This document shows positions 1,852 through 64,000 of a stretch of DNA of 64,000 nucleotides, in pieces (position 1 is the first letter of the stretch; every line of letters begins with the position of its first letter). Under the pieces are notes generated by a model, which saw only the letters and a program-made list of their open reading frames with translations, ran no database searches and was not told the DNA's origin. Both the position numbers and the translations under genes were made by a program. Origin of the DNA: Patescibacteria group bacterium (GTDB lineage Bacteria; Patescibacteriota; Doudnabacteria; UBA920; O2-02-FULL-48-8); assembly GCA_036278915.1 (NCBI GenBank), contig DASUKB010000001.1, positions 7,259 to 71,258 on the forward strand. Reading direction: 5' to 3'.

Positions 1852-2355
1852 ATGTACAGTCATTAAAAACCAAATTAAGGAGCAACTAAAAACACTCGGT
1901 TTTTGAGCAAATTTCTTTGATCCCTGTTGTTGTATGGGATATCGAGGAACACGAAAGGCTCGTGTTTTTTACTTGCTAAAGTGGTTTTGTGAAGTACCTT
2001 AACAATTGCATACCCAAGAATTATCAATTAGATAATCAGTCTCGCAAAGTGCGGGATCGACAACCAATTGCAGATAATTTATTGGGAATAAGACGCCGAA
2101 CCTTTTGCCGTCAAGCTAAAGGGGAGGCAAAGACGTCAATTACTTTGATTCTAGATTCCCGTTTACGGGAACAAAGGTTTGCAATTTGACCTTTTAAAAA
2201 AATAAATTGCGCCAGTTTAATCTGATTTCAGATTACACTCACAAAATTATGACCTCACTCTTTTATTAAAGGGAAAGAGGTTAGCAAATACGGCTCTGCC
2301 GGATTTGCGATGTAGGAGAAAACCGCTAGGTTGTCTCCTACACATAATTCATTGA

Positions 2356-2399
<44 letters not shown>

Positions 2400-2516
2400 G
2401 ACATGCAAGTCGAGTGGGTTTAGACCCACGGCGAACGGGTGAGTAATACCTGGGAACTTTCTTCTAGTTGAGGATATCCTCCCGAAAGGGAGAGCAATAC
2501 TCGATGTGCCCAGCCC

Positions 2517-2805
2517 TTTTCTTAGTTGTATAATGTTAATTATGTATTATGTATATATAATCAAACATGATCCTTCCGGAGATATCTATATTGGATTCTC
2601 GGACAATGTTGATGCGAGATTGACTGCTCATAACAATGGGCAAAATACCTCAACACGAAGATTGTCTGGCCAATGGATACTAACATACACAGAAGCTTAT
2701 CGTTCAGAGCAAGATGCTCGTGAAAGAGAACGAAAGCTGAAACAGTACGGAAGCGCCAAACAGAGATTACTAAAAAGGATCTCAAGAAGTTTTGGAAACT
2801 GAGAA
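2517..2805 (+). other. intervening sequence (IVS) in the 16S gene, closed by a 12-bp stem
   Basis: CCCAGCCCTTTT at 2508-2519 pairs with AAAAGGGCTGGG at 2806-2817; the AT-rich interior interrupts otherwise conserved 16S sequence. Confidence 0.75.
2533..2802 (+). CDS. small GIY-YIG nuclease-superfamily protein (YhbQ/UPF0213-like) encoded inside the 16S IVS
   Basis: YVYIIKHDPSGDIYIGFSDNVDARLTAHNNG followed by an E/R/K-rich helix matches the GIY-YIG core; start codon uncertain (GTG 2506, ATG 2533 or ATG 2542). Confidence 0.7.
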   Translation: MLIMYYVYIIKHDPSGDIYIGFSDNVDARLTAHNNGQNTSTRRLSGQWILTYTEAYRSEQDARERERKLKQYGSAKQRLLKRISRSFGN

Positions 2806-2935
2806 AAGGGCTGGGTAAAGCAGCAATGCGCTAGATGTGAGGCCCGGGCCCCATCAGCTAGTTGGTAGGGTAACGGCCTACCAAGGCTATGACGGGTAGC
2901 GGAAGCGAGAGCTTGATCCGCCACACTGGGACTGC

Positions 2936-2968
<33 letters not shown>

Positions 2969-3463
2969 TTGGAATTTTGGACAATGGGCGAAAGCCTGAT
3001 CCAGCGACGCCGCGTGCACGAAGAAGGCCTTCGGGTTGTAAAGTGCTTTTGCTTGGGAAAAATTTTTGATTGTACCAAGAGAATAAGAGGTTGCTAACTC
3101 TGTGCCAGCAGCAGCGGTAATACAGAGACCTCAAGCGTTATCCGGAATCATTGGGCGTAAAGCGTACCGATAGGTGGTTTTGCAAGTTTTGGGTAAAAGC
3201 CAGAAGCTCAACTTCTGCGTTTGCTCAAAATACTGCAATACTAGAGGGACAAAGAGGTTGCTGGAACGAACGGTGTAGTAGTGAAATGCGTTGATATCGT
3301 TCGGAACACCGAAAGCGAAGGCAGGCAACTGGGTGTCACCTGACACTGCTAGGACGAAAGCGTGGGGAGCGAATGGGATTAGATACCCCAGTAGTCCACG
3401 CTGTAAACGATGAGTGCTAGGAATGCGCGAGTATCGACCCTCGTGCGATCCGTAGCTAACGCG

Positions 3464-3560
<97 letters not shown>

Positions 3561-3970
3561 GTAAGCGAGGAACCTTACCAAGGCTTGACATTCTTCTGCA
3601 AGCGCACGGAAACGTGTGACCTTCGAGGGTGAAGAACAGGTGCTGCACGGTTGTCGTCAGCTCGTGTCGTGAGATGTTCCCTTAAGTGGGAGAACGAGCG
3701 CAACCCCCATGTTATGTTGATTTTCATAACAGACTGCCGGCGTTTAAGCTGGAGGAAGGCGGGGATGACGTCAAATCAGCGTGGCTCTTACGCCTTGGGC
3801 GACACACGTGCTACAATGGATAGGAACAATGGGACGCAACACCGTAAGGTAGAGCAAATCCTCTCAAAAACTATCCTCAGTTCAGATTGAGGGCTGCAAC
3901 TCGCCCTCATGAAGCTGGAATCGCTAGTAACCGCAAATCAGCCTCGTTGCGGTGAATACGTTCTCGGGTT

Positions 3971-4001
<31 letters not shown>

Positions 4002-4341
4002 GGTAAGTACCCAATATTTGCGCAAGCGAACGAAGGTAAGTATCATGACTGGGGTGAAGTCGTAACAAGGCATCGGTAGCGGAAGCTGTCGATGGATCAC
4101 CTCCTTTCTAAGGAGAATTCTGCAGAAACAGGAATCATTTCGATGAATCCTGCGGAGCAGTAATGATGGTCGATTCAGAATTGAAGCTCGCAAGAGCAGA
4201 TATTCTGAACACATCAAGACTCTGACGTTTATGTGGTTTTCGAAAGAGAATCGCAATCTTATTCCCAATAAATTGTCTGGAACCTGAAGGGTTTCTTATG
4301 ATGGAAAGCCTGGTGGCCTCACGGTCACAGGCTTTTTAAAT

Positions 4342-4364
4342 TGGTACGTACCACGTACGTACCA
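4342..4364. promoter_or_regulatory. dyad operator-like site TG-GTACGTAC-CAC-GTACGTAC-CA just after a -10-like TTAAAT
   Basis: two copies of the self-complementary octamer GTACGTAC spaced by 3 nt; the same architecture recurs at 49540-49562. Confidence 0.5.
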
Positions 4365-4427
4365 TGCCATTTTGCCATTTGGGCTCGCGACCTCGACAAA
4401 GTCGAGCGCCGGAGTTATGCTTGGGTT

Positions 4428-4991
4428 ATGTGGACAGAAGTTCTAAAATTTGTGGGCAGTATTGTCGGAGGCAGTGCCGTTCTTATAACAGCATTCACTT
4501 ACCTTTCCAAAAGGCTTATTGATCATCAGTTCACTAAAGAGATTGAAAAATTTAAAAGTGATCTTGTTATTGCTGCGAATAGAGATTCTACTACTTATAA
4601 AGAACTACACGCAAGACGAGCTGATGTCATTCACCAGCTTTATAAGAAAATAACTCGAACATATCGAGCGTATGAATCTTTAATTAACCCAATGCAATTT
4701 TTTAGTGAATTAAGCCCAGACGAAAAGAAAAAAATTGCCTCTGATGCATATAAAGACCTATTCCAATATTTTGATGAGAGACGCATATATTTTAAAGAGG
4801 AAATCGAGAATAAAATAGACCGTTTTACATCAGACATAATAAATATTAATAATGAATTTATTATGAAAGATTTCGTGTCCGTAACAAAAATTGAAAAATG
4901 GAATAAAGTCTGGATCAGATTAAAAGAAGAGACCCCAAAGATACAAAAAGAAATTAAAGACGAATTCAGATTAATCATGGGCATTAATTAA
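4428..4991 (+). CDS. hypothetical lysine-rich protein with one N-terminal TM helix and a helical cytoplasmic domain; low-GC (about 30%) gene
   Basis: ORF 4341-4991; probable start at MWTEVLKFVGSIVGGSAVLITAF; composition deviates strongly from the neighbours. Confidence 0.5.
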   Translation: MWTEVLKFVGSIVGGSAVLITAFTYLSKRLIDHQFTKEIEKFKSDLVIAANRDSTTYKELHARRADVIHQLYKKITRTYRAYESLINPMQFFSELSPDEKKKIASDAYKDLFQYFDERRIYFKEEIENKIDRFTSDIININNEFIMKDFVSVTKIEKWNKVWIRLKEETPKIQKEIKDEFRLIMGIN

Positions 4992-5036
4992 TTGCACTTT
5001 TATTGCTCGCGGTATCGGTGGGGTCTGATATCTAGT

Positions 5037-5064
5037 TTGCGTATACGCATGCGTATACGCAAAT
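5037..5064. repeat. 28-bp perfect palindrome TTTGCGTATACGCATGCGTATACGCAAA (two tandem GCGTATACGC palindromes)
   Basis: read directly; lies between the low-GC gene and the convergent small gene, with no U-tract on the + strand. Confidence 0.6.
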
Positions 5065-11607: not shown

Positions 11608-12450
11608 TTAACTCACTCCAATCATAATGCTAAATACTAATAACAAAATTAGTGAGAATCTATACATGCGTCTGGCCCAAAGCCCCGTGTCGGGAGTATT
11701 TAATCCGCGAAAAGCCATTGCCAGCCAATATAGTCCCAAAATTCCCACGACCGCCAAGTACCGCCAGCCGACAAATCTGAAGACATATAGCATGGACGCA
11801 GATACAAGATAAAGAACGATAAGCACGATTATAGAAAGTTTCGTGTAGCGGATGCCCTTCTCTGCCGGCAGTACGGGCACGTGCGCTGCTTGGTAATCGC
11901 GCAGCCGATATATTGCGATCGCATAAAAATGCGGCAATTGCCAAATGACCATTATTAAAAATAAAATCAAACCTTCCCACCCTATGCGGCCAGTGACTGC
12001 GGTAAACCCGGCCAATATAGAAACCGCGCCTGGCAAAGTGCCAATAGTGGCCGCATGCAAGGTGCGGACTTTGAGCGGCGTGTAAACCCCGACATAAAGC
12101 AGTATGCCGGATAAGACTACAAGCATAGTTAAAGTGTTGGTAAACCAAAACAGTATAGCCAGTCCGACTGCGGCCAAAATTACGGCAAAGATAACGGCGT
12201 TTCTGGTTCCGGTTTGGTTTAAAATTTGCCGCCGGTTTTGAGTGCGCGGCATAAGTTCGTCTATGCCGCGATCCAGTAAATTATTTAGAACACAGCCTGC
12301 AGCAATAGATAATGCTACTCCTGCCAGCATGGCCACAAAAAGTCCTGGATGAAAGACGTCTTTTGAAGCTAAGAAAAATGCGGCAATTGCCGTGAGGCTG
12401 TTGCCATAAATAATACCCGGTTTGGTGAGCCGATAGTAAGCCGAAAGCAT
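11608..12450 (-). CDS. cyoE: protoheme IX farnesyltransferase (heme O synthase, UbiA family)
   Basis: UbiA-type polytopic membrane protein directly downstream of cyoD in conserved operon order. Confidence 0.85.
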   Translation of the reverse strand: MLSAYYRLTKPGIIYGNSLTAIAAFFLASKDVFHPGLFVAMLAGVALSIAAGCVLNNLLDRGIDELMPRTQNRRQILNQTGTRNAVIFAVILAAVGLAILFWFTNTLTMLVVLSGILLYVGVYTPLKVRTLHAATIGTLPGAVSILAGFTAVTGRIGWEGLILFLIMVIWQLPHFYAIAIYRLRDYQAAHVPVLPAEKGIRYTKLSIIVLIVLYLVSASMLYVFRFVGWRYLAVVGILGLYWLAMAFRGLNTPDTGLWARRMYRFSLILLLVFSIMIGVS

Positions 12451-12792
12451 TTAGAATCCTCCTTCCTGGCTTGTGATGTAGTCCTGAATTTGCTGGGGCG
12501 TCATATTGTAATTAAGATTGGCCATAATCCAAAGACTGCCGACGACGATAATCAAAATTAATCCTACCGTTGAGACAAACATTGCCAAGTTCCAGTGTGG
12601 ACGTGGCTCTGACCCCACGTGCAGGAAAAATATCAGCTGCACCACAAGCTGCACCAAAGCCAGTGTCAGAATGGCGAAAATTAGTTTATTGCCGGCAAAC
12701 GTCTGGTCCACTACCAGCTTGTATGCTAAGAGCGTTAAAAAGATAGACAGCAGCAAACCCAAGACATATTTAAATACGGTTTTTTGGTTCAT
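12451..12792 (-). CDS. cyoD: cytochrome bo3 ubiquinol oxidase subunit IV
   Basis: MNQKTVFKYVLGLLLSIF...WIMANLNYNM matches CyoD; ATGA overlap with cyoC; the ORF track's longer N-terminal extension is rejected. Confidence 0.85.
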   Translation of the reverse strand: MNQKTVFKYVLGLLLSIFLTLLAYKLVVDQTFAGNKLIFAILTLALVQLVVQLIFFLHVGSEPRPHWNLAMFVSTVGLILIIVVGSLWIMANLNYNMTPQQIQDYITSQEGGF

Positions 12793-13382
12793 CGGGCGGC
12801 TCCCATAAGGTAAACAATAGTAAAGATAAAGATCCAAACGATATCCAGGAAATGCCAGAACAGACCCAGCCGGACGAGTTTGCTTTTGATGCTCGCAGTT
12901 AAGCCTCGCACATGCATCATAACCATAGACACTGCAATCCAAAACAGGCCTACTGTAATATGCAAGCCGTGCGTGCCAACGAGCGTGAAGAACGCGGACA
13001 GAAATCCGCTGTTGCGAAAGCTTTGGCCGTCTGCCAAAAGATGCGAAAATTCGCGCAGCTCTAAGCCCAAGAAAGTCGCGCCAAGTAAGAATGTGATGCC
13101 AAACCAAAGATAGGCTTGCTTTTTGCTGCCGGCATTTGCGGCCAGAACTGCCAGGCCGCAGGTAAAACTGCTGGTAAGCAAAATCAAAGTTTCTGCCAGA
13201 GCTTGCGGCAATTTCAGAAGTTCGCCAGCGGTTGGGCCGCCGAATGTGTTGTTGCGAAGTACGGCGTACACCGCAAACAACACGGCAAACATCGTCAGGT
13301 CTGTCATAAGATAGACCCAGAAGCCGAAAATGACTCTGTCGTTATGTTCGTGTTCTACGGGTTGGATGTTGTTATCGGCCAT
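12789..13382 (-). CDS. cyoC: cytochrome bo3 ubiquinol oxidase subunit III
   Basis: MADNNIQPVEHEHNDRVIFGFWVYLMTD... is CyoC-like; start 4 nt after the cyoB stop. Confidence 0.85.
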   Translation of the reverse strand: MADNNIQPVEHEHNDRVIFGFWVYLMTDLTMFAVLFAVYAVLRNNTFGGPTAGELLKLPQALAETLILLTSSFTCGLAVLAANAGSKKQAYLWFGITFLLGATFLGLELREFSHLLADGQSFRNSGFLSAFFTLVGTHGLHITVGLFWIAVSMVMMHVRGLTASIKSKLVRLGLFWHFLDIVWIFIFTIVYLMGAAR

Positions 13383-13386
13383 AAGT

Positions 13387-15357
13387 TTAGTGTAATGTTT
13401 CTTTTTCTTCCAATTGTCGCAGTTCGGAAGCGGTAATAACGTACTCGGTGTCATCGTCGTACGCGCGGATAATGACGCAGATGATTGCACCGGCAAATCC
13501 CAAAATTCCAAGCCAGAGAATATGCCAGACAAACGCAAAGCCTAACAGAAATATAAATCCCGACAGATAAATTCCGAGCCCGGTGTTTTTGGACATCGTA
13601 ATATCCTGGTAATTTTTCGGTTTGGTCAGGCCCTTCTGTTTCATATTCCAAAATGCATCGCGGCTCTCAACCGTCGGTATGACCGCGAAGTTATAATGCG
13701 GCGGCGGGGAGGATGTGGCCCATTCCAGAGTCCGGCCATTCCAAGGATCACCTGTTAGATCCCGATTTTCTTTGCGCTGTTTGAAGCTTACGAAAATCTG
13801 AAGGACTTGCAAGAGCGCGCCAATGCCAATGATGCAAATGCCAATGAGCGCTGTTATAAAGAGCGGTTGCCACCCGGTGCCGGCGTCATAATGATCCAGC
13901 CGGCGCGTGGCGCCCATTAGTCCAAGCAGATACAGCGGCGTGAATGCCGTAAAAAATCCGACCAGCCAGCACCAGAACGCGTATTTGCCGAGGCGTTCGT
14001 TGAGCCGGAAGCCTGTGACTTTGGGAAACCAGTAAGTGATGCCGGCAAATATGCCAAATAGCGCGCCGCCGATGACCATGGTATGGAAATGCGCCACCAA
14101 AAATAAAGTGTTGTGCAGTTGAAAATCCGCCGCGGGCGAAGCAAGTAAAAGTCCTGCGATGCCGCCAAACGTAAAGGTGCTTATGAATCCCAAAAACCAA
14201 AACATCGGAGTCTTGAAGATAATCCGGCCGCGGAACATAGTGAGAAGCCAGTTGAAAATTTGCACCGCAGTTGGGATGCCGATAATCATAGTCATGATGC
14301 CGAAGAAAGCGTTGACGTCGGCGCCGGCGCCCATGGTAAAAAAGTGGTGGAGCCAGACTACGAACGCGATACCGGTAATGCCAAAGGCCGCGGCTACCAT
14401 TGAGTAGTATCCGAATAATTTTTTCTGCGAGAAAGTAGATACGACTTCCGAGTATATGCCGAAACCAGGGATAATAAGCACGTAGACTTCCGGATGTCCC
14501 CAAGTCCAAATGAGGTTGACGTACATCATCATATTGCCGCCAAATCCTGCGGTGAAAAAATGCATGCCGAAAAACCGGTCGAGCCAGAGCAGGGCAATAG
14601 TCGCGGCCAGAATCGGAAAGATAGCCACAACAAGCGACGAGCTAAGGAGTGCGGTCCAGGTAAACATCGGCATCCGGAAAAGCGTCATGCCAGGCGCGCG
14701 CATTTTGATGATGGTTACCAGAAAATTAATTCCGCCAAGCATGGTGCCCAGCCCGGAAATTTGCAGGCTCCATATCCAATAATCCACGCCCGTACCCGGA
14801 TTGAACGCCAGTTCTGACAATGGCGGCAAGGCCAGCCAGCCCGTGGCCGCAAAGTCGCCGCCAATGACAAAAAATAAATTGATAAACACCGCGCCCGCCA
14901 CATACAGCCAAAAGCCCAAAGAATTGAGAAATGGAAACGCCAGGTCGCGCGTGCCGATTTGCAGGGGCACTATGAAGTTGAGCAGGCCGAACAAAAATCC
15001 CATAGTCACGAAAAAAATCATAATGTCGCCGTGGGCCGTGAAAATCTGCTGGAAGTGGCTCGGGTCCAGGTAACCGTATGAAGCACCGGAAGATAAAGCC
15101 TGCTGGAGCCATATCATAACCGCATCCAGGGCGCCGCGGAAAAGCATAAGCGAAGCCATAATGATATACATAATCCCAATCCGTTTAGGATCAGTGGAGG
15201 TCAGCCACTCAGTCCAGAGCCATTTCCACCGTTTGGTGTAGGTGAGGAACAGCACGACGACTACGGACATAAGCAAAATAAAGCACGTCCCTCCTAAGGT
15301 GAACCATTGGTGGGGGAGCGCATCCGTCGTAAGATTTCCAATCAAAAAGTGTTGCAT
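13387..15357 (-). CDS. cyoB: cytochrome bo3 ubiquinol oxidase subunit I (heme-copper oxidase)
   Basis: near-verbatim CyoB blocks WIWSLQ, KMRAPGMT, NMMMYxNLIWxWGHPEVY, NRDLTGDPWxGRTLEWATSSPPP. Confidence 0.95.
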   Translation of the reverse strand: MQHFLIGNLTTDALPHQWFTLGGTCFILLMSVVVVLFLTYTKRWKWLWTEWLTSTDPKRIGIMYIIMASLMLFRGALDAVMIWLQQALSSGASYGYLDPSHFQQIFTAHGDIMIFFVTMGFLFGLLNFIVPLQIGTRDLAFPFLNSLGFWLYVAGAVFINLFFVIGGDFAATGWLALPPLSELAFNPGTGVDYWIWSLQISGLGTMLGGINFLVTIIKMRAPGMTLFRMPMFTWTALLSSSLVVAIFPILAATIALLWLDRFFGMHFFTAGFGGNMMMYVNLIWTWGHPEVYVLIIPGFGIYSEVVSTFSQKKLFGYYSMVAAAFGITGIAFVVWLHHFFTMGAGADVNAFFGIMTMIIGIPTAVQIFNWLLTMFRGRIIFKTPMFWFLGFISTFTFGGIAGLLLASPAADFQLHNTLFLVAHFHTMVIGGALFGIFAGITYWFPKVTGFRLNERLGKYAFWCWLVGFFTAFTPLYLLGLMGATRRLDHYDAGTGWQPLFITALIGICIIGIGALLQVLQIFVSFKQRKENRDLTGDPWNGRTLEWATSSPPPHYNFAVIPTVESRDAFWNMKQKGLTKPKNYQDITMSKNTGLGIYLSGFIFLLGFAFVWHILWLGILGFAGAIICVIIRAYDDDTEYVITASELRQLEEKETLH

Positions 15358-15362
15358 CTGAT

Positions 15363-16268
15363 TTACATATGCATGCCCGGCATGTCGGCATCTTGTCCGG
15401 CTTCCGGGGCCATAAATTTCATAATCACTTCGTTGTAAAGGTTGGGTTCCACTGGCGCAAAGAAGGCTTGCGGATTATATTCGCTCGGCTTTGCCAGGTC
15501 GTTATACCCGGCTAAAGTCAGCTCAGAGGATGTTGCCTGCATCGAGTTTAGCCAGGAATTGAAATCATCTGAAGATACGGATTTGGCCGTAAACTTCATG
15601 CCCGCAAAACCTGCGCCATTGATTTCCGCGGCCGTGCCCGCGTATTCACCAGCGGAGTCGGCCATAAGGTTGAGCTGGGTGACCATACCCGGCATAGCGT
15701 ACATTTGTCCTCCTAATTGTGGAATCCAAAACGAACTCATTGGTGCGTCTGCTGTTAACTGGAAATTCACGGGCGTATTTTGTGGAAATTCCACGAAGTT
15801 TACCGTAGCGATATTTTGTCCAGGGTAGATAAACAGCCACTTCCACTGCAGGGCCACGACTTGGATGGTCAAAGTTTTTGTGCCTGGGTCAATTTTTTTG
15901 TAAGGGTCCACGGCGTGGCTTGTGTTCCAGGTCAAAATTCCAAGCAATACAACAATAGCCGCTGGCAGGCCCCATCGAATGAATTCCCATTCCAGATTGT
16001 GGTCCCACTCCGGCTGGTAGTCTGCTTGTTCGTTTGTGGCCCGGTACTTGTAGGCGATTACAAATGTCGCTACCAAAAGCGGCACGGCCAAGGTCAGCAT
16101 AAGCAGTACCGCCGTAAACATAGTACTGCGTTCTTGGTGCGCGATAATGCCTTGAGGATTGAGTAACTGGAAATTGTGCCCGCGCAAAAGGAGGCTGATC
16201 GTGATAATGGTTGCAGCAACTAGCAAAATCGGCAGAATAATTTTTAATTTTTTTGAAATTTGTTTCAT
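15363..16268 (-). CDS. cyoA: cytochrome bo3 ubiquinol oxidase subunit II
   Basis: signal/TM start MKQISKKLKIILPILLVAA, quinol-oxidase subunit II fold; TATAAT-like -10 and GAGG SD just upstream of the ATG at 16268 (ORF track extends to 16301). Confidence 0.85.
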   Translation of the reverse strand: MKQISKKLKIILPILLVAATIITISLLLRGHNFQLLNPQGIIAHQERSTMFTAVLLMLTLAVPLLVATFVIAYKYRATNEQADYQPEWDHNLEWEFIRWGLPAAIVVLLGILTWNTSHAVDPYKKIDPGTKTLTIQVVALQWKWLFIYPGQNIATVNFVEFPQNTPVNFQLTADAPMSSFWIPQLGGQMYAMPGMVTQLNLMADSAGEYAGTAAEINGAGFAGMKFTAKSVSSDDFNSWLNSMQATSSELTLAGYNDLAKPSEYNPQAFFAPVEPNLYNEVIMKFMAPEAGQDADMPGMHM

Positions 16269-21420: not shown

Positions 21421-21497
21421 GGGCGACTAGCTCAGGTGGTTAGAGCGCGTCACTGATAATGACGAGGTCGATGGTTCGAGTCCATCGTCGCCCACCA
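21421..21497 (+). tRNA. tRNA-Ile (anticodon GAU)
   Basis: cloverleaf GGGCGAC/GTCGCCC acceptor, anticodon loop CTGATAA, T-loop TTCGAGT, encoded CCA. Confidence 0.9.
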
Positions 21498-21526
21498 TTG
21501 GCGGATAAATATTTTAAAACCAAAAC

Positions 21527-21766
21527 ATGAGATTTATTTGGGGCCTCGTTTGGATAGCCATCGGCGTCGGCGTTATAAAATACAGTTTTCAAATTACGAA
21601 TTTTTTCGGACATGTGCCTTGGGCCGAACAGCATATCGGCGGCGGCGGCACTTACACAATGTATAAAATTGCCGGGATCGTAATTATAATATTCGCGTTT
21701 TTGTATATGTTCGGCAATACTGGATTTTTAACTGGCCGTCTGGCACCTCTTTTTGGCGGAGGCTAA
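21527..21766 (+). CDS. small 2-TM membrane protein, hypothetical
   Basis: two hydrophobic helices, Gly-rich ends. Confidence 0.4.
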   Translation: MRFIWGLVWIAIGVGVIKYSFQITNFFGHVPWAEQHIGGGGTYTMYKIAGIVIIIFAFLYMFGNTGFLTGRLAPLFGGG

Positions 21767-21830
21767 TGTTTTCTACGTGAATTAAAACGCCAGCGCGGTT
21801 TGATTTTGTGAGGAGCGGTATGTTCGGGGA

Positions 21831-21904
21831 GGGCCGTTAGCATAGTGGTAGTGCAGTCGGTTTGCATCCGACAGGCGCGAGTCCGATTCTCGCACGGTCC
21901 ACCA
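21831..21904 (+). tRNA. tRNA-Ala (anticodon UGC)
   Basis: anticodon loop TTTGCAT; G3:U70 alanine identity pair in the acceptor stem; encoded CCA. Confidence 0.8.
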
Positions 21905-34557: not shown

Positions 34558-34597
34558 AAAAAAAAATTAAACCCGCCAGGTTGGCGGGTTTAATTAA
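34558..34597. terminator. bidirectional rho-independent terminator
   Basis: AAACCCGCCAGGTTGGCGGGTTT with A-run before and T/A-run after. Confidence 0.75.
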
Positions 34598-40939: not shown

Positions 40940-41124
40940 AGGATGTCCATTTCTTTTCTAGAAAAGAAATGGACGAAAGAAAAGTTGCGACACGGGAAAA
41001 AATTCCGGAATTCTTAGCTCGCTTTCGCTTATTGGTTGCGAAGGTTTTTTCGAACTCTCGTCGCGCGAGTCTGTTCGTCCGAAGCGCCGTAAATAAATCC
41101 TACGGCGCTTATTTTTTATAACAC

Positions 41125-41241: not shown

Positions 41242-41704
41242 TGGAACAAGCTAATGCCAAAACAAACAAAAACCTCAAGTTTTAACGTAAAAAATATGAA
41301 ATTCTCCAGCAACTCACTTCAACGAAAGGCGGTTATGTAAACTGGCGCTTTAGTTTGTGCCCAGAATTCAACCGCCGAAAGGCGTTTTTTTGTTCCTTAC
41401 AACTAACATCTAGAATTCAGTGCTTCACCGCATTGCTTGACTTTAAGCAGGTTCTGAAAGTAAGCACTGTATTCTGGATGTAAGCGGATAGAACTTTAAC
41501 AATTTACCGGCATCTAAGAGATATATTTTCAGTTTGCCAAACGTATGAGAGATGATGAGTCTCGAAGGTAGGCGTTTAGCAAAACATAAGTTAGTGCTTA
41601 TGAATATATCTGAATCCAAATCCTCGGCATTGTAACCGGGGTAACTCTGGCTTAACTGTCGGAGTATAAAAAATAGCAATCACTAATTGCTAGTCAAGAA
41701 TCTG

Positions 41705-45168
<3,464 letters not shown>

Positions 45169-45239
45169 TTAAATTTTTGACTAGCGTTTTGTGATTATTA
45201 TCACAAGTTCATTTACATCCCCGCTTTCGCGGGGACAAG

Positions 45240-45778: not shown

Positions 45779-46134
45779 ACAACTCCGACGTTTTGCATAA
45801 CAAAAGTCGGAGTCCTGACTTGCATTTTTGTGCATCGTCGGGATTGACGGCGATTTTTGCTCTTTCCATAATGATTCCAAACTGCTATAATTAATCAGTT
45901 GGAACTAATATGGATTTGCTAATGCAAAGATATTCGCCTTCGCTTAAATTGGTAGGACTTATAATCGTTATCGCGGCCATGGGATTTATAATCTTCGCGC
46001 TTACGAAAAACACCCTGCCAATGCAGTAATACAGCGCTTCGCACTGTAATTTCTAAGCCCTAATATCTAAGCTCTAAACAAGATTAGAAATTAGTAATTA
46101 GAACTTAGAAATTGCAGCACGTAAGTGCTGAATA

Positions 46135-46252
46135 TCTCCTCGTGCTTCAAGGGCCGCTGCCCCACCCGATCCCATCCCGAACTCGGAAGTGAAACGCGGC
46201 ACCGCTCATGATACTCCAGTGTAAGACTGGTGGGAAAGTAGGCAGTGCGGGG
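46135..46252 (+). rRNA. rrf: 5S ribosomal RNA
   Basis: CCACCCGATCCCATCCCGAACTCGGAAGTGAAACG loop C/helix III block and 3' GAGAGTAGG-like segment; boundaries approximate. Confidence 0.8.
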
Positions 46253-46446
46253 TTTTTTATTTATATTGAGGGACGAACCTACGGTTCTTCCCTCAACGCG
46301 CCGTCAGCAAAGCTGATTTTTGCTTCGCAAAAACAAGCGGCGCTGCTCCTTTCTCCCTTCTTAATTGACCTAATTGGTCTTTTTTGTTGTCCTAAAAAAT
46401 AGTGGCTTCGTTTAGAAAATTTTTTTGTGTTGGGCGAGGAAATTTG

Positions 46447-59182: not shown

Positions 59183-61783
59183 ATGGATTTTCTTAATCCC
59201 AAAATACGTACGCAACCGCAGGTTTCCATGTCTAACGCAAACGCAGCAAACCCAAACCAATCTTCTTCCGTTTCGATGCCCGCAACACAGACGAACGTTT
59301 TCACTAAAATCATCAATTATAGTTTGATAGCTTTGGTTTTTTTGATACCGTTGTTTTTTCTTCCGCTAACCTCGGAAGTCCGCGAATTCAATAAACAAAA
59401 TTTGCTTATTTTAGGCGTGTTGATCATGCTGGCAGCCTGGGTCATACGCGTTTTGTCTACCAGACGGGTATCCTGGGTCAAAACCTCACTGGATTACGTA
59501 ATCTTGGCTTACGCGGCTATTTATGTTCTGGCAAGCTACTTATCGATTGACCGGCCATCGTCATTTCTGGGATATGTCGGGCGATTTTCGGGCAGTTGTA
59601 TTTCGGTCATTGCCCTAGTTTTGCTTTATTTTCTAGTAGTCAACAATGTCCGCGGACAAAAGATCACGCAGCGGATTATGGACGCGCTGATTGCCGCAAG
59701 CGGACTTGCGACTATTTATGGTTTGCTCCAGACGCTTAAATGGTACGTACTGCCTGCTTTTACACATTCGCAATCGTTTAACTCAATCGGAAGCATGGTG
59801 GCATTGAGCATCTTCGGTGCGATGTCTATAACGCTTTACCAATGGCAGCTCTTGGCCTCTCCGAAATCCTCGGTGCTCAAGAAATCTGTCTTGGGCGTGC
59901 TTATGGTTTTGTCGCTTATCCTGATGTTTTTGATTAACGCATTCATTGGCTGGCTTGTTTTAGCCATTGGCATGGTCGTTTTTACCGCTCTAGGCATGAT
60001 GATAGTAGGCACCGAAGAGGGAAGCGATCAGCAGTCATGGTTTTGGAGGCCGATGGTGGTATTGGTTATTGCGATTTTGTTTGTGGCTTTTCAGATTTTG
60101 CCTGCTTCCATAAATCCGCGCAATCTCGTAAGTAACAACCTCAACTTGCCCGTGGAGATTCAACTCTCCAACTCCGCGACTTTCAATTTGGTCAAAAATT
60201 CCGTAAGTTCCGGCGCCAAAACCGCAATCTTTGGGTCTGGTCCTGGCACCACAGGAATTGCCTTTGGCCAGATTAAACCTGCTGATTTGAATAAAACTGT
60301 GGTTTGGAGCCTCAACTTTGACCGAGCCTCAAGCGAGATAGCCAACATTACCATAGAAACTGGCATCCTCGGTCTGGTGGCGTTTGAAGCCGCATCCATC
60401 TTGTTTCTTATTTACGCGCTATATTTTTTACTTAAGCGCGCTTACCACGTCGGCAAAATGTATGCATTTGGATTCTTTACGATATGGTCCGTACTGTACC
60501 TGGCTCATTTCTTTTATTTCTTCAATACAACTTTCTATTTCCTGTACTGGCTTGCAATTGCCGCATTTATGGCTGTCGCGCATTGGAACTTTGCCAACCA
60601 GCAAGATCCGGATATGAATATGAACACTTCGCCGCGAACGGCATTGTCTTGGATGTTTGCCTCCCTGCTGATGCTGGCACTTATCTTGGTAGGCGCGTTC
60701 TTTGAGGCTTCGGTGTACGTAGCGGAAGCTTCATACACGTCTGGCGTCAAAAATTTGAGCCAATCCAATCCCGACTTCAATCAGGCACAAAGCCAGTTTA
60801 ATCGCGCGGTGAGCCTGAATCCTTACCGAGATATATATCACCTGGCCAGCGCTCAGAATCAAATCTTTTTGGCTTCAATTGAGGCGGCCAAAGACAAACC
60901 CGATGTCAATCAAGCGATTACCTGGATTCAGGGTGCGATAGCTGACGGCAATGCCGCGACTCAGATTTCACCCAATAACGCCGGCAACTGGTCGGCTTTG
61001 GCCCAAATCTATAACGCAATTAGTCCTTTGGGGGTAGAAGGAACGGCTTTGCAGGCCAGTACGGCATGGCAGGAGGCTATAAAGCACGACAGTCAAAATC
61101 CGGCTCTGGAAGTCCAACTGGCCAACGCTTACTATGATGCGTCCACGACAATTGACCCCAAAATTTTGGGTACGGGGACGGATTCCGATGGCGATGGCCT
61201 GACAGATCAAGCAGAAGCGACATTCAAGTCCGACCCGCATAATTCCGATACCAATGGCAATGGTACGCCGGATGGAGCCGAAGTTTTGGCAGGGTTTAAT
61301 CCCGCGGGAGTCGGCACGTTGGATAATTCGATTCTGAACCAATACCAGAGAGTGGATAATTCCCTCCTTAAACAGGCCGCAGACGCCGCCAACCAATCTA
61401 TTAACCTCAAAAATGACTTTCCGGACCCGTACATCGTGCTGGCGCGCGTTTACGAGAAAGAAAACCAATTGACTGACGCCAAGAAAGTTTTGGATGACGC
61501 AGCTATTAAATTTAACCGCAACCCTGATATATTGTTTGAACAAGGTCGGATTACGTTCAACAGCGGCGACTCGGCTACGGCGGAAAAAATATTCAATGAC
61601 GTGTTAACTCTCGAGCCTAATGATGCCGACGCGCTGTTCTCACTCGGTCTCATCTATGAGCCAAAAGATCCAGCCAAGGCTTTGGACTATTATCAGCAGG
61701 TGCGCCAAATCACAGGCCCCAACGTTGACCTGGATAAAAAGATAAACGATTTGAAAGCTTCAGTCTCAAACTCGGCAAAATAG
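59183..61783 (+). CDS. polytopic membrane protein with an O-antigen-ligase-like (Wzy_C) domain fused to C-terminal TPR repeats
   Basis: about 10-12 TM helices over the first 450 aa, then TPR-like helical repeats. Confidence 0.55.
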   Translation: MDFLNPKIRTQPQVSMSNANAANPNQSSSVSMPATQTNVFTKIINYSLIALVFLIPLFFLPLTSEVREFNKQNLLILGVLIMLAAWVIRVLSTRRVSWVKTSLDYVILAYAAIYVLASYLSIDRPSSFLGYVGRFSGSCISVIALVLLYFLVVNNVRGQKITQRIMDALIAASGLATIYGLLQTLKWYVLPAFTHSQSFNSIGSMVALSIFGAMSITLYQWQLLASPKSSVLKKSVLGVLMVLSLILMFLINAFIGWLVLAIGMVVFTALGMMIVGTEEGSDQQSWFWRPMVVLVIAILFVAFQILPASINPRNLVSNNLNLPVEIQLSNSATFNLVKNSVSSGAKTAIFGSGPGTTGIAFGQIKPADLNKTVVWSLNFDRASSEIANITIETGILGLVAFEAASILFLIYALYFLLKRAYHVGKMYAFGFFTIWSVLYLAHFFYFFNTTFYFLYWLAIAAFMAVAHWNFANQQDPDMNMNTSPRTALSWMFASLLMLALILVGAFFEASVYVAEASYTSGVKNLSQSNPDFNQAQSQFNRAVSLNPYRDIYHLASAQNQIFLASIEAAKDKPDVNQAITWIQGAIADGNAATQISPNNAGNWSALAQIYNAISPLGVEGTALQASTAWQEAIKHDSQNPALEVQLANAYYDASTTIDPKILGTGTDSDGDGLTDQAEATFKSDPHNSDTNGNGTPDGAEVLAGFNPAGVGTLDNSILNQYQRVDNSLLKQAADAANQSINLKNDFPDPYIVLARVYEKENQLTDAKKVLDDAAIKFNRNPDILFEQGRITFNSGDSATAEKIFNDVLTLEPNDADALFSLGLIYEPKDPAKALDYYQQVRQITGPNVDLDKKINDLKASVSNSAK

Positions 61784-63918: not shown

Positions 63919-64000
63919 GCGGCCATCACGATAAATACGATAATCGTCAATACCGCGAGCCAACCGATTGTATAACCGAAAAACTGCAAGGCTTCTTTTT
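63919..64000 (-). CDS. 3' end of a membrane-protein gene continuing beyond the window
   Basis: open frame to the window edge ending ...IVFIVMAAVR-stop. Confidence 0.3.

What the first reader, a model, noticed from the sequence alone, without database searches (positions are those of the whole stretch)
4342..4364. Repeated operator-like motif GTACGTAC-N3-GTACGTAC at two unrelated loci
Two self-complementary octamers spaced by 3 nt occur at 4342-4364 and again at 49540-49562. Each copy sits just downstream of a -10-like hexamer (TTAAAT; TATACT), which is where a repressor operator would be. One precedes the low-GC membrane-protein gene and the other precedes a truncated pyruvate-kinase-like gene. 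A 19-bp composite palindrome occurring twice in 64 kb at the same promoter-relative position is unlikely by chance. The cognate regulator is not obvious in this window; the excisionase-family HTH protein (54939-55151) and the zinc-ribbon micro-proteins are candidates.
Basis: seen in the sequence. Interest (0 to 1): 0.55.

Follow-up and report, generated by a model that had tools for sequence, protein, structure and literature searches.

The report
Twin GTACGTAC palindrome at two promoters
A 19-base double palindrome occurs twice, far beyond chance, in an uncultured Patescibacteria genome. At one site it covers the predicted start of transcription of a conserved gene, so it is most likely a lineage-specific repressor binding site, but neither a binding protein nor a regulon could be shown.

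Summary
GTACGTAC-N3-GTACGTAC occurs exactly twice (4344-4362 and 49542-49560), against 0.06 expected. Both copies share a TTGG left flank, and no degenerate copies exist. GTACGTAC is the most over-represented 8-mer in about 80 kb of this genome.

The window is chromosomal DNA from a Patescibacteria MAG related to Doudnabacteria.

Site 2 lies directly after an extended -10 promoter (TGCTATACT). That promoter is invariant in the four orthologous loci where a promoter is recognisable, so the predicted transcription start falls inside the first octamer. The motif itself is absent from all six orthologous loci recovered. Against the closest one, it is a sharply bounded replacement between conserved blocks. 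A more distant orthologue has a different palindrome at the same position.

Site 1 has only a weak -10-like hexamer without the TG extension typical of this genome, and it precedes an ORFan gene.

The best reading is a lineage-specific operator overlapping the transcription start (about 0.45). The rivals are a 5'-terminal RNA hairpin (about 0.2) and a neutral or selfish small palindrome (about 0.2). No regulator was identified. The only recognisable DNA-binding protein nearby is an HTH_17 protein coupled to holA, and nothing links it to the motif.

This is an ordinary kind of feature and remains unproven. Interest is modest.

The parts
4342..4364 (.). Site 1: TGGTACGTAC-CAC-GTACGTACCA. Two GTACGTAC octamers 11 bp apart, forming a 10+10 inverted repeat.
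   Evidence: (hairpin -13.3 kcal/mol)
49540..49562 (.). Site 2: TGGTACGTAC-GCC-GTACGTACGG. Same two octamers at the same spacing, with a different spacer and right flank.
   Evidence: (hairpin -10.1 kcal/mol)
49531..49539 (+). Extended -10 promoter TGCTATACT of the PK_C-like gene. The predicted +1 is about 49546, inside the first octamer.
   Evidence: TATTTGCTATAMT is invariant in the window, L116, L117 and L118. TGCTATAAT is also present in L379. This is the general promoter type in the window.
49492..49527 (+). Terminator-like hairpin plus T-run that ends the upstream unit. It is conserved in L116.
   Evidence: 47 of 54 identical to L116. The simple terminator scan found nothing in this region.
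49579..50319 (+). Gene downstream of site 2: a 246-aa protein conserved in Doudnabacteria-like genomes. Some homologues carry weak PK_C hits.
4336..4342 (+). Weak -10-like hexamers TTAAAT/TAAATT directly before site 1, without a TG extension.
   Evidence: no TGnTAnnnT between 1316 and 7416
4302..4338 (+). Terminator-like hairpin plus T-run, about 200 nt after the 3' end of the 16S rRNA and immediately before site 1.
4393..4421 (+). Alternative promoter-like site TCGACA-17-TATGCT, downstream of site 1. It would give a leaderless gene A transcript and place the motif at about -75.
4428..4991 (+). Gene downstream of site 1: a 187-aa ORFan with an N-terminal hydrophobic segment, in a slightly low-GC stretch.
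59741..59750 (+). Third, single copy of TGGTACGTAC. It lies inside the 866-aa ORF (codons K-W-Y-V) and is probably chance.

Best explanation
The motif is a DNA-level operator. It consists of two identical palindromic octamers whose centres are 11 bp apart, which is one helical turn, so both lie on the same face of the helix. A sequence-specific protein would bind it either as one dimer on the 8-N3-8 inverted repeat or as two dimers, one on each palindromic box.

At the PK_C-like gene the motif starts 2 nt after the extended -10 hexamer and covers about -4 to +15. Bound protein would therefore block open-complex formation or promoter escape.

The site was acquired in this lineage only. It replaced the ancestral leader between two conserved blocks. 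The same protein would also bind in front of the ORFan membrane-protein gene next to the 16S rRNA gene.

Shown: the motif, its non-randomness, the conserved promoter at site 2, and its absence in relatives.
Inferred: the position of the transcription start, protein binding, repression, and co-regulation of the two genes.
For: - Exact recurrence far beyond chance.
- The 16 octamer bases and the TTGG flank are identical between the sites, while the 3-nt spacers (CAC, GCC) and the right flanks differ. This is the pattern expected when a protein contacts the two boxes but not the spacer.
- At site 2 the motif lies between a promoter that is invariant across the orthologous loci and the start codon.
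- Extended -10 promoters with short leaders are the rule in this window. The housekeeping sigma factor has region 3.
- With +1 taken as 7 nt after the -10, half of the 5' arm is not transcribed. The complete palindrome therefore exists only in DNA. RNA starting at +1 folds no better than shuffled sequence.
- A more distant orthologue, L379, has an unrelated palindrome (TTGCTACT-N11-AGTAGCAA) at the same position directly after TGCTATAAT. This suggests the promoter is repeatedly placed under lineage-specific control.
- No Rfam family matches either region.
Against: - No regulator was identified.
- The motif is absent from all six orthologous loci.
- Only two sites were seen in about 80 kb, both perfect and without degenerate relatives. 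A transcription-factor regulon would normally show a range of site quality.
- The promoter at site 1 is doubtful.
- The transcription start is predicted, not measured.
- The same sequence serves other purposes in other genomes, for example as terminator stems in a UBA10199 MAG. The sequence alone therefore implies no particular function.
Confidence: 0.45

Rival explanations
1. The element acts in the RNA as a stem-loop at or near the 5' end of the two mRNAs. It would stabilise the transcript against 5'-end-dependent decay (an RNase J-like gene lies just outside the window) or serve as an RNA-protein binding site.
For: - Both copies fold into stable hairpins when fully transcribed: -13.3 and -10.1 kcal/mol, with 8-10 bp stems and 3-nt loops.
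- Because GTAC is repeated, a register-shifted 5-6 bp hairpin at the very 5' end survives even if +1 lies inside the first octamer.
- This genome uses many perfect palindromic hairpins between genes.
- L379 also has a hairpin-forming leader.
- An RNase J-like beta-CASP protein is encoded 2-3 kb beyond the window.
Against: - Structure alone gives no reason for 16 of 16 identical stem bases at two unrelated loci.
- The predicted +1 removes half of the 5' arm. The remaining fold is no better than shuffles (z -0.2 to -0.8).
- The three closest orthologous leaders have no comparable hairpin.
- There is no Rfam match.
Confidence: 0.2
2. The element is a small palindromic repeat with no regulatory role, either neutral or selfish. 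It could be REP- or MITE-like, a product of template-switch palindrome formation, or a HIP1-like iterated palindrome. It happened to land in two intergenic spacers that tolerate insertions.
For: - Both copies are perfect, with no degenerate versions.
- The motif is lineage-specific and sharply bounded between conserved blocks: 47 of 54 and 105 of 130 identical in the flanks, against 10 of 27 in the segment itself.
- Both sites follow terminator-like hairpins.
- The identical palindrome is a multi-copy dispersed element in other genomes. There are 6 loci in one UBA10199 MAG, where five have A- and/or T-runs beside the palindrome. There are 3 loci in one Chloroflexota MAG.
- A third lone 10-mer sits inside a coding region.
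Against: - Only two copies were found in about 80 kb.
- The loops and right flanks differ, so the copies are not simple duplicates.
- There is no shared flanking sequence, no target-site duplication, and no transposase or RAYT-like gene in the window.
- At site 2 the change is a replacement of the leader (27 nt against 19 nt), not a clean insertion.
- The position is identical relative to the A/T hexamer at both sites.
Confidence: 0.2
3. The element has another DNA-level function. Options are a cluster of four GTAC methylation sites acting as an epigenetic switch at the promoter, a DNA-uptake-sequence-like signal in an organism with a type IV pilus locus, or a cruciform or Z-DNA-prone element (strictly alternating purine-pyrimidine) that makes the promoter sensitive to supercoiling.
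For: - The octamer is strictly alternating purine-pyrimidine and self-complementary.
- TGGTACGTAC is the most over-represented 10-mer in the region and also occurs once inside a gene. Uptake sequences show the same mix of inverted pairs between genes and single copies within genes.
- The window contains genes whose products begin with a prepilin-type N-terminal motif, FTLIELLV.
Against: - The density, about 1 per 16 kb, is far below that of known uptake sequences or HIP1.
- No GTAC methyltransferase is seen in the window.
- None of these ideas has direct evidence.
Confidence: 0.1
4. The recurrence is chance.
For: Some exact 16-mer recurring once in 64 kb is not rare in itself. About one such pair is expected over all word pairs (own estimate).
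Against: - This particular structure, a palindromic octamer repeated after 3 nt, is expected about 0.09 times per window across all octamers and gaps of 0-14.
- It occurs twice with the same octamer, the same gap and the same 4-nt flank. Both copies are intergenic.
Confidence: 0.02

Closest known systems
Operators of ribbon-helix-helix repressors (Arc, Mnt, MetJ, CopG) and similar dimer-of-dimers systems
   Same: Two short (pseudo)palindromic boxes lie about one helical turn apart on the same face of the DNA and overlap a promoter. The boxes are conserved and the spacer is free. (Comparison from general knowledge; the anatomy is.)
   Different: No RHH or other cognate protein was found in the window. 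The box sequence is unrelated. Binding is untested.
Classical repressor operators that overlap the transcription start (lac O1, LexA boxes, TetR-type operators)
   Same: There is dyad symmetry, centred a few bases downstream of the predicted +1 of a sigma-70-type promoter.
   Different: Known regulons show degenerate sites and conservation in orthologous promoters. Here there are two perfect sites and none in the orthologous loci. I could not check the published LexA motif of Patescibacteria, because the paper is not held. No SOS-type gene lies downstream.
REP/BIME-type extragenic palindromes and HIP1-type iterated palindromes
   Same: It is a short perfect palindrome, intergenic, placed after terminator-like hairpins and lineage-specific. 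GTACGTAC is the only strongly over-represented palindromic octamer.
   Different: The copy number seen is very low, 2 per about 80 kb. There is no conserved flank and no RAYT or transposase gene in the window.
Inverted pairs of DNA uptake sequences in Neisseria
   Same: A 10-mer is present as an inverted pair between genes and as a single copy inside a gene, in an organism whose genes begin with prepilin-type motifs.
   Different: The density is orders of magnitude lower. No uptake data exist.
The same palindrome in other genomes (UBA10199 MAG JACKPK01; Saccharibacteria MAG CAWFYI01; Streptomyces spp.)
   Same: The 16 specified bases and the spacing are identical.
   Different: The contexts differ. 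In UBA10199, five of the six copies have A- and/or T-runs beside the palindrome. In Saccharibacteria, two full 11-nt units plus a partial third lie between tRNA-Ala and tRNA-Ile. In Streptomyces, the motif sits beside terminator-like hairpins near tRNA genes. Patescibacteria account for 5 of 115 loci, close to my rough guess of their share of the collection, so enrichment is not evident. These are most likely independent uses.

Membership tests
Transcription-factor operator (repressor site overlapping a promoter) | Lies within or directly next to a functional core promoter | tested here: inconclusive
   Site 2 meets this. It starts 2 nt after an extended -10 that is invariant in orthologous loci. 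Site 1 has only a weak hexamer without TGn, and an alternative promoter lies downstream. Transcription starts are predicted, not measured.
Transcription-factor operator (repressor site overlapping a promoter) | Dyad or direct-repeat symmetry that fits an oligomeric DNA-binding protein | tested here: met
   Two identical palindromic octamers lie with centres 11 bp apart. Together they form an 8-10 bp inverted repeat around 3 nt.
Transcription-factor operator (repressor site overlapping a promoter) | Conserved in orthologous promoters of related genomes | tested here: not met
   Absent from L116, L117, L118, L378, L379 and L380. The -10 is nevertheless conserved in L116, L117, L118 and L379. The nearest relatives are only 66-67% identical in protein, so a young operator is not excluded.
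Transcription-factor operator (repressor site overlapping a promoter) | A cognate DNA-binding protein is identified, often encoded nearby | tested here: not met
   The neighbouring small proteins have no DNA-binding domain. The only HTH protein (HTH_17, 54939-55151) overlaps holA and has no link to the motif. Structure models of two neighbours were of low confidence.
Transcription-factor operator (repressor site overlapping a promoter) | Several sites of graded similarity that define a regulon | tested here: inconclusive
   Two perfect sites and no copies with 1-4 mismatches in 64 kb. None in a further 15.7 kb of the same genome. The rest of the 386-kb contig could not be reached.
Intrinsic (rho-independent) terminator | G+C-rich stem followed directly by a T-run | tested here: not met
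   No T-run follows the palindrome on either strand at either site. The scan does not report it as a terminator. Separate terminator-like hairpins lie just upstream.
REP/MITE-like dispersed palindromic repeat | Many copies per genome, with conserved flanks or a cognate transposase | tested here: inconclusive
   Two copies in about 80 kb, with no shared flanks beyond TTGG and no transposase or RAYT gene in the window. A whole-genome count was not possible.
Described structured RNA family (Rfam 15) | Match to a covariance model | tested here: not met
   No credible match at E <= 1 in 4108-4440 or 49470-49600. The single hit was a eukaryotic miRNA model at E = 0.6.

The most novel reading that the evidence does not exclude
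GTACGTAC (TGGTACGTAC) is a genome-wide iterated signal in this Doudnabacteria-like lineage. It would be either the box of a global regulator specific to this lineage, or a HIP1- or uptake-sequence-like word tied to GTAC methylation or to DNA uptake through the type IV pilus. The two promoter copies would be the visible tip of it.
Probability: 0.08. Interest if true: 0.6.

Novelty: new member of a known kind. Interest (0 to 1): 0.3.

Why it matters
To my knowledge, almost nothing is known about transcriptional regulation in Patescibacteria (CPR), which cannot be grown alone. If the motif is a real operator, it would provide three things:
- a defined cis-element;
- a clear promoter architecture (extended -10 with very short leaders);
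- a concrete probe for pulling out a CPR regulator by DAP-seq or EMSA.

It would also show how a conserved promoter gains lineage-specific control through a short replacement. If it is only a small selfish palindrome, the finding is ordinary.

Tried and rejected
- **Phage origin.** My first guess, that the motif resembled phage N4-type hairpin promoters, was dropped. The window holds 16S, 23S and 5S rRNA genes and housekeeping genes, and has no phage matches.
- **Motif scans of public collections.** None of the metagenome or viral loci tested matched this window outside rRNA/tRNA genes.
- **Reaching the rest of the source genome.** The protein search shows that the source protein occurs on a 386-kb NCBI contig. 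The look-up returned only short Logan contigs. These added 15.7 kb and no new copy.
- **Comparative test at site 1.** This failed. Gene A is an ORFan, and relatives' contigs that carry the upstream His_Phos_1 gene all end about 1.7 kb past that gene, where the 16S gene would begin by synteny.
- **ECF-sigma or sigma-54 promoter readings.** I rejected these on spacing, by reading the sequence.
- **-35/-10 reading of TTGGTA.** I rejected this because no -10 follows at 16-18 nt.
- **Literature.** A full-text search for GTACGTAC returned only primers and unrelated uses. The Patescibacteria LexA paper is not held.
- **Neighbouring small proteins.** Pfam and PHROGs scans gave nothing. Single-sequence AlphaFold models had pLDDT of 46 and 67 and were unusable, so no fold searches were run.
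- **Spacing preference in viral contigs.** N3 appears about 2-fold commoner than other gaps that are not multiples of 4. The scan was truncated and I rescaled it roughly, so I give this little weight.

Full report
**What is there**

The two sequences are exactly as reported:
- TGGTACGTACCACGTACGTACCA at 4342-4364;
- TGGTACGTACGCCGTACGTACGG at 49540-49562.

The gapped pattern GTACGTAC-N3-GTACGTAC matches twice with no mismatch. Dinucleotide shuffles give 0.06 matches on average, and none of 100 shuffles reached 2. No copy with 1-4 mismatches exists, and counts at 5-6 mismatches equal background.

A broader test counted any palindromic octamer repeated after a gap of 0-14 nt. It finds 3 such structures against 0.09 in shuffles. 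The third is an unrelated 28-nt perfect palindrome at 5036-5063.

GTACGTAC occurs five times, against 0.3-0.7 expected. It is the most over-represented 8-mer in about 80 kb of this genome, and TGGTACGTAC is the top 10-mer. An independent Logan assembly of run SRR25158533 is identical over 5679 bases that include site 1.

**Where the window comes from**

The window is bacterial chromosome, not phage.
- It carries a 16S gene (2349-4107), tRNA-Ile and tRNA-Ala (21.4-21.9 kb), a 23S gene (41704-45172) and a 5S gene (46138-46253). These are unlinked.
- Proteins identical to window genes come from an NCBI TPA MAG named 'Patescibacteria group bacterium', with locus tags VFX17_ and a 386-kb contig.
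- The nearest named relatives are Candidatus Doudnabacteria.

**Anatomy of site 2**

The motif follows a terminator-like hairpin with a T-run (49492-49527) and then TGCTATACT (49531-49539). The start codon of a 246-aa protein is at 49579.

I recovered six orthologous loci at 60-67% protein identity. In L116, L117 and L118 the block TATTTGCTATAMT is invariant. L379 keeps TGCTATAAT. This is an extended -10 promoter. The same type (TGnTAnnnT, followed after 6-39 nt by a start codon or a tRNA) precedes at least a dozen genes in the window. The housekeeping sigma factor has region 3.

Taking +1 as 7 nt after the hexamer, which is the established geometry for sigma-70 promoters, transcription would start near 49546. 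That is inside the first octamer, so the motif spans about -4 to +15.

None of the six orthologous loci has the motif. Against the closest one, L116:

| Segment | Identity |
|---|---|
| Terminator-promoter block | 47 of 54, including 32 consecutive bases ending in TATACTTG |
| First 130 nt after the segment | 105 of 130 |
| Segment holding the motif | 10 of 27 (27 nt in the window, 19 nt in L116) |
| Whole coding sequence | 65% |

L116, L117 and L118 share a loosely similar leader (CGG...TAAC). The motif is therefore a gain in the window's lineage and a sharply bounded replacement. L379 has a different palindrome, TTGCTACT-N11-AGTAGCAA, at the same place directly after the -10.

**Anatomy of site 1**

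The motif lies about 235 nt after the 3' end of the 16S gene. It directly follows a terminator-like hairpin with a T-run (4302-4338).

The hexamers TTAAAT/TAAATT precede it at the same offset (within 1 nt) as at site 2. They lack the TG extension, and no TGnTAnnnT exists anywhere between 1316 and 7416. A conventional promoter-like site, TCGACA-17-TATGCT (4393-4421), lies downstream. It would give a leaderless transcript starting at the ATG at 4428 and would put the motif at about -75.

The gene (4428-4991, 187 aa) has only its own MAG copy and two weak hits among 5.8 billion proteins.

**DNA or RNA**

If fully transcribed, the palindromes fold at -13.3 and -10.1 kcal/mol. From the predicted +1, only a register-shifted 5-6 bp hairpin remains, and it is no better than shuffles. 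Neither region matches any Rfam family.

The pattern of conservation between the two copies fits sequence-specific recognition of two boxes in duplex DNA better than a purely structural RNA element. All 16 box bases and TTGG are identical, while the spacer and the right flank are free. With only two copies this argument is suggestive, not decisive.

**Is it a dispersed repeat**

In the 64-kb window plus 15.7 kb of flanking sequence from the same genome there are only the two full sites. One further lone 10-mer lies inside a coding region, 59741-59750.

The same 19-mer occurs in many unrelated genomes and metagenomes, in different roles:
- palindromes with A- and/or T-runs beside them, in 5 of 6 loci of one UBA10199 MAG;
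- two full 11-nt units plus a partial third between tRNA-Ala and tRNA-Ile in a Saccharibacteria MAG;
- arrays of 3-5 tandem 11-mers in metagenome contigs;
- sites next to start codons in haloarchaea.

Patescibacteria account for 5 of 115 genome loci, close to my rough guess of their share of the collection. There is therefore no sign of a phylum-wide motif.

**Regulator**

No candidate stands out.
- Small proteins next to both sites have no recognisable domain.
- Two single-sequence structure models were of low confidence.
Its own promoter, TGATAAAAT, has no GTAC element.

**Verdict**

| Reading | Confidence |
|---|---|
| Lineage-specific operator overlapping the transcription start of the PK_C-like gene, and perhaps of the ORFan gene, bound by an unidentified dimeric or tetrameric protein | about 0.45 |
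| 5'-terminal RNA hairpin | about 0.2 |
| Neutral or selfish small palindrome | about 0.2 |
| Other DNA-level roles (methylation cluster, uptake-like word, supercoiling-sensitive element) | about 0.1 |
| Chance | about 0.02 |

It would be a new member of a familiar kind of element. Interest is modest. Its main value is as a concrete handle on regulation in an uncultured CPR lineage.

Noticed in passing
window 2349-4107, 21421-21904, 41704-45172, 46138-46253: The rRNA genes are unlinked and enlarged. The 16S match spans 1759 nt against a 1533-position model, and the 23S match spans 3469 nt against 2925, which suggests insertions. tRNA-Ile and tRNA-Ala lie on their own about 17 kb after the 16S gene. 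The 5S gene lies 966 nt after the 23S gene, and a TGCTATAAT promoter-like site sits between them at 45883.
   Followed up: no
window, for example 19099, 37383, 46473, 49531, 54909, 62573(-), 54878(-), 21380: Promoter-like sites in this genome are of the extended -10 type (TGnTAnnnT), without an obvious -35. Their leaders are very short, 6-39 nt, and some are effectively leaderless.
   Followed up: partly
window 5036-5063: A perfect 28-nt palindrome, TTTGCGTATACGCATGCGTATACGCAAA (two CGTATACG octamers, also alternating purine-pyrimidine), lies between the convergent ORFan gene and a 67-aa gene on the minus strand. The ORFan gene is therefore flanked by two double-octamer palindromes.
   Followed up: partly
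window 54567-54600, 40945-40974, 34565-34595, 51605-51634: Several unique, perfect 14-16 bp inverted repeats with 0-3 nt between the arms lie at or just past gene ends. They are probably bidirectional terminators typical of this genome.
   Followed up: no
window 11608-16268 (- strand): The window carries a haem-copper quinol-oxidase-type operon: COX1, COX2 with COX_ARM, COX4_pro and a UbiA-family haem O synthase-like gene. To my knowledge this is unusual for a Patescibacteria genome.
   Followed up: partly
window 54939-56146: A 70-aa HTH_17 (excisionase/MerR-like) gene overlaps the start of holA (DNA polymerase III delta) by one base, next to tRNA-Lys. No integrase is present, so it does not look like a prophage excisionase.
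   Followed up: partly
L379:2958-3000 (ENA ERZ1823576, orthologue of the PK_C-like gene): A different palindrome, TTGCTACT-N11-AGTAGCAA with an inner AGCATGCT, lies directly after the conserved TGCTATAAT. This is the same position as the GTACGTAC motif in the window.
   Followed up: partly
window 49492-49541 compared with L116:9920-9971: The terminator-promoter block upstream of the PK_C-like gene is better conserved than the coding sequence (87% against 65%). It includes 32 consecutive identical bases.
   Followed up: partly
L019, L044, L046, L063, L065, L105 (MAG JACKPK01, phylum UBA10199): One genome carries at least six copies of GTACGTAC-N3-GTACGTAC with variable loops. Five have A- and/or T-runs beside the palindrome and look like a family of terminator palindromes with a fixed stem. 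L105 has a different palindromic extension.
   Followed up: no
L115:1470-1510 (Saccharibacteria MAG CAWFYI01): Two full 11-nt GTACGTAC units plus a partial third fill the spacer of about 38 nt between tRNA-Ala and tRNA-Ile.
   Followed up: no
L139, L216, L221, L225/L231 (metagenome contigs): These contigs carry arrays of 3-5 tandem GTACGTACNNN units with an 11-nt period. In L221 a second copy of the motif, with its flank inverted, lies about 1.2 kb from the array and resembles terminal inverted repeats of a mobile element.
   Followed up: no
L264:5155-8038 (same genome, beyond window position 64000): An RNase J-like beta-CASP gene and an ECF-type sigma factor with a neighbouring 253-aa gene lie just outside the window.
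   Followed up: no
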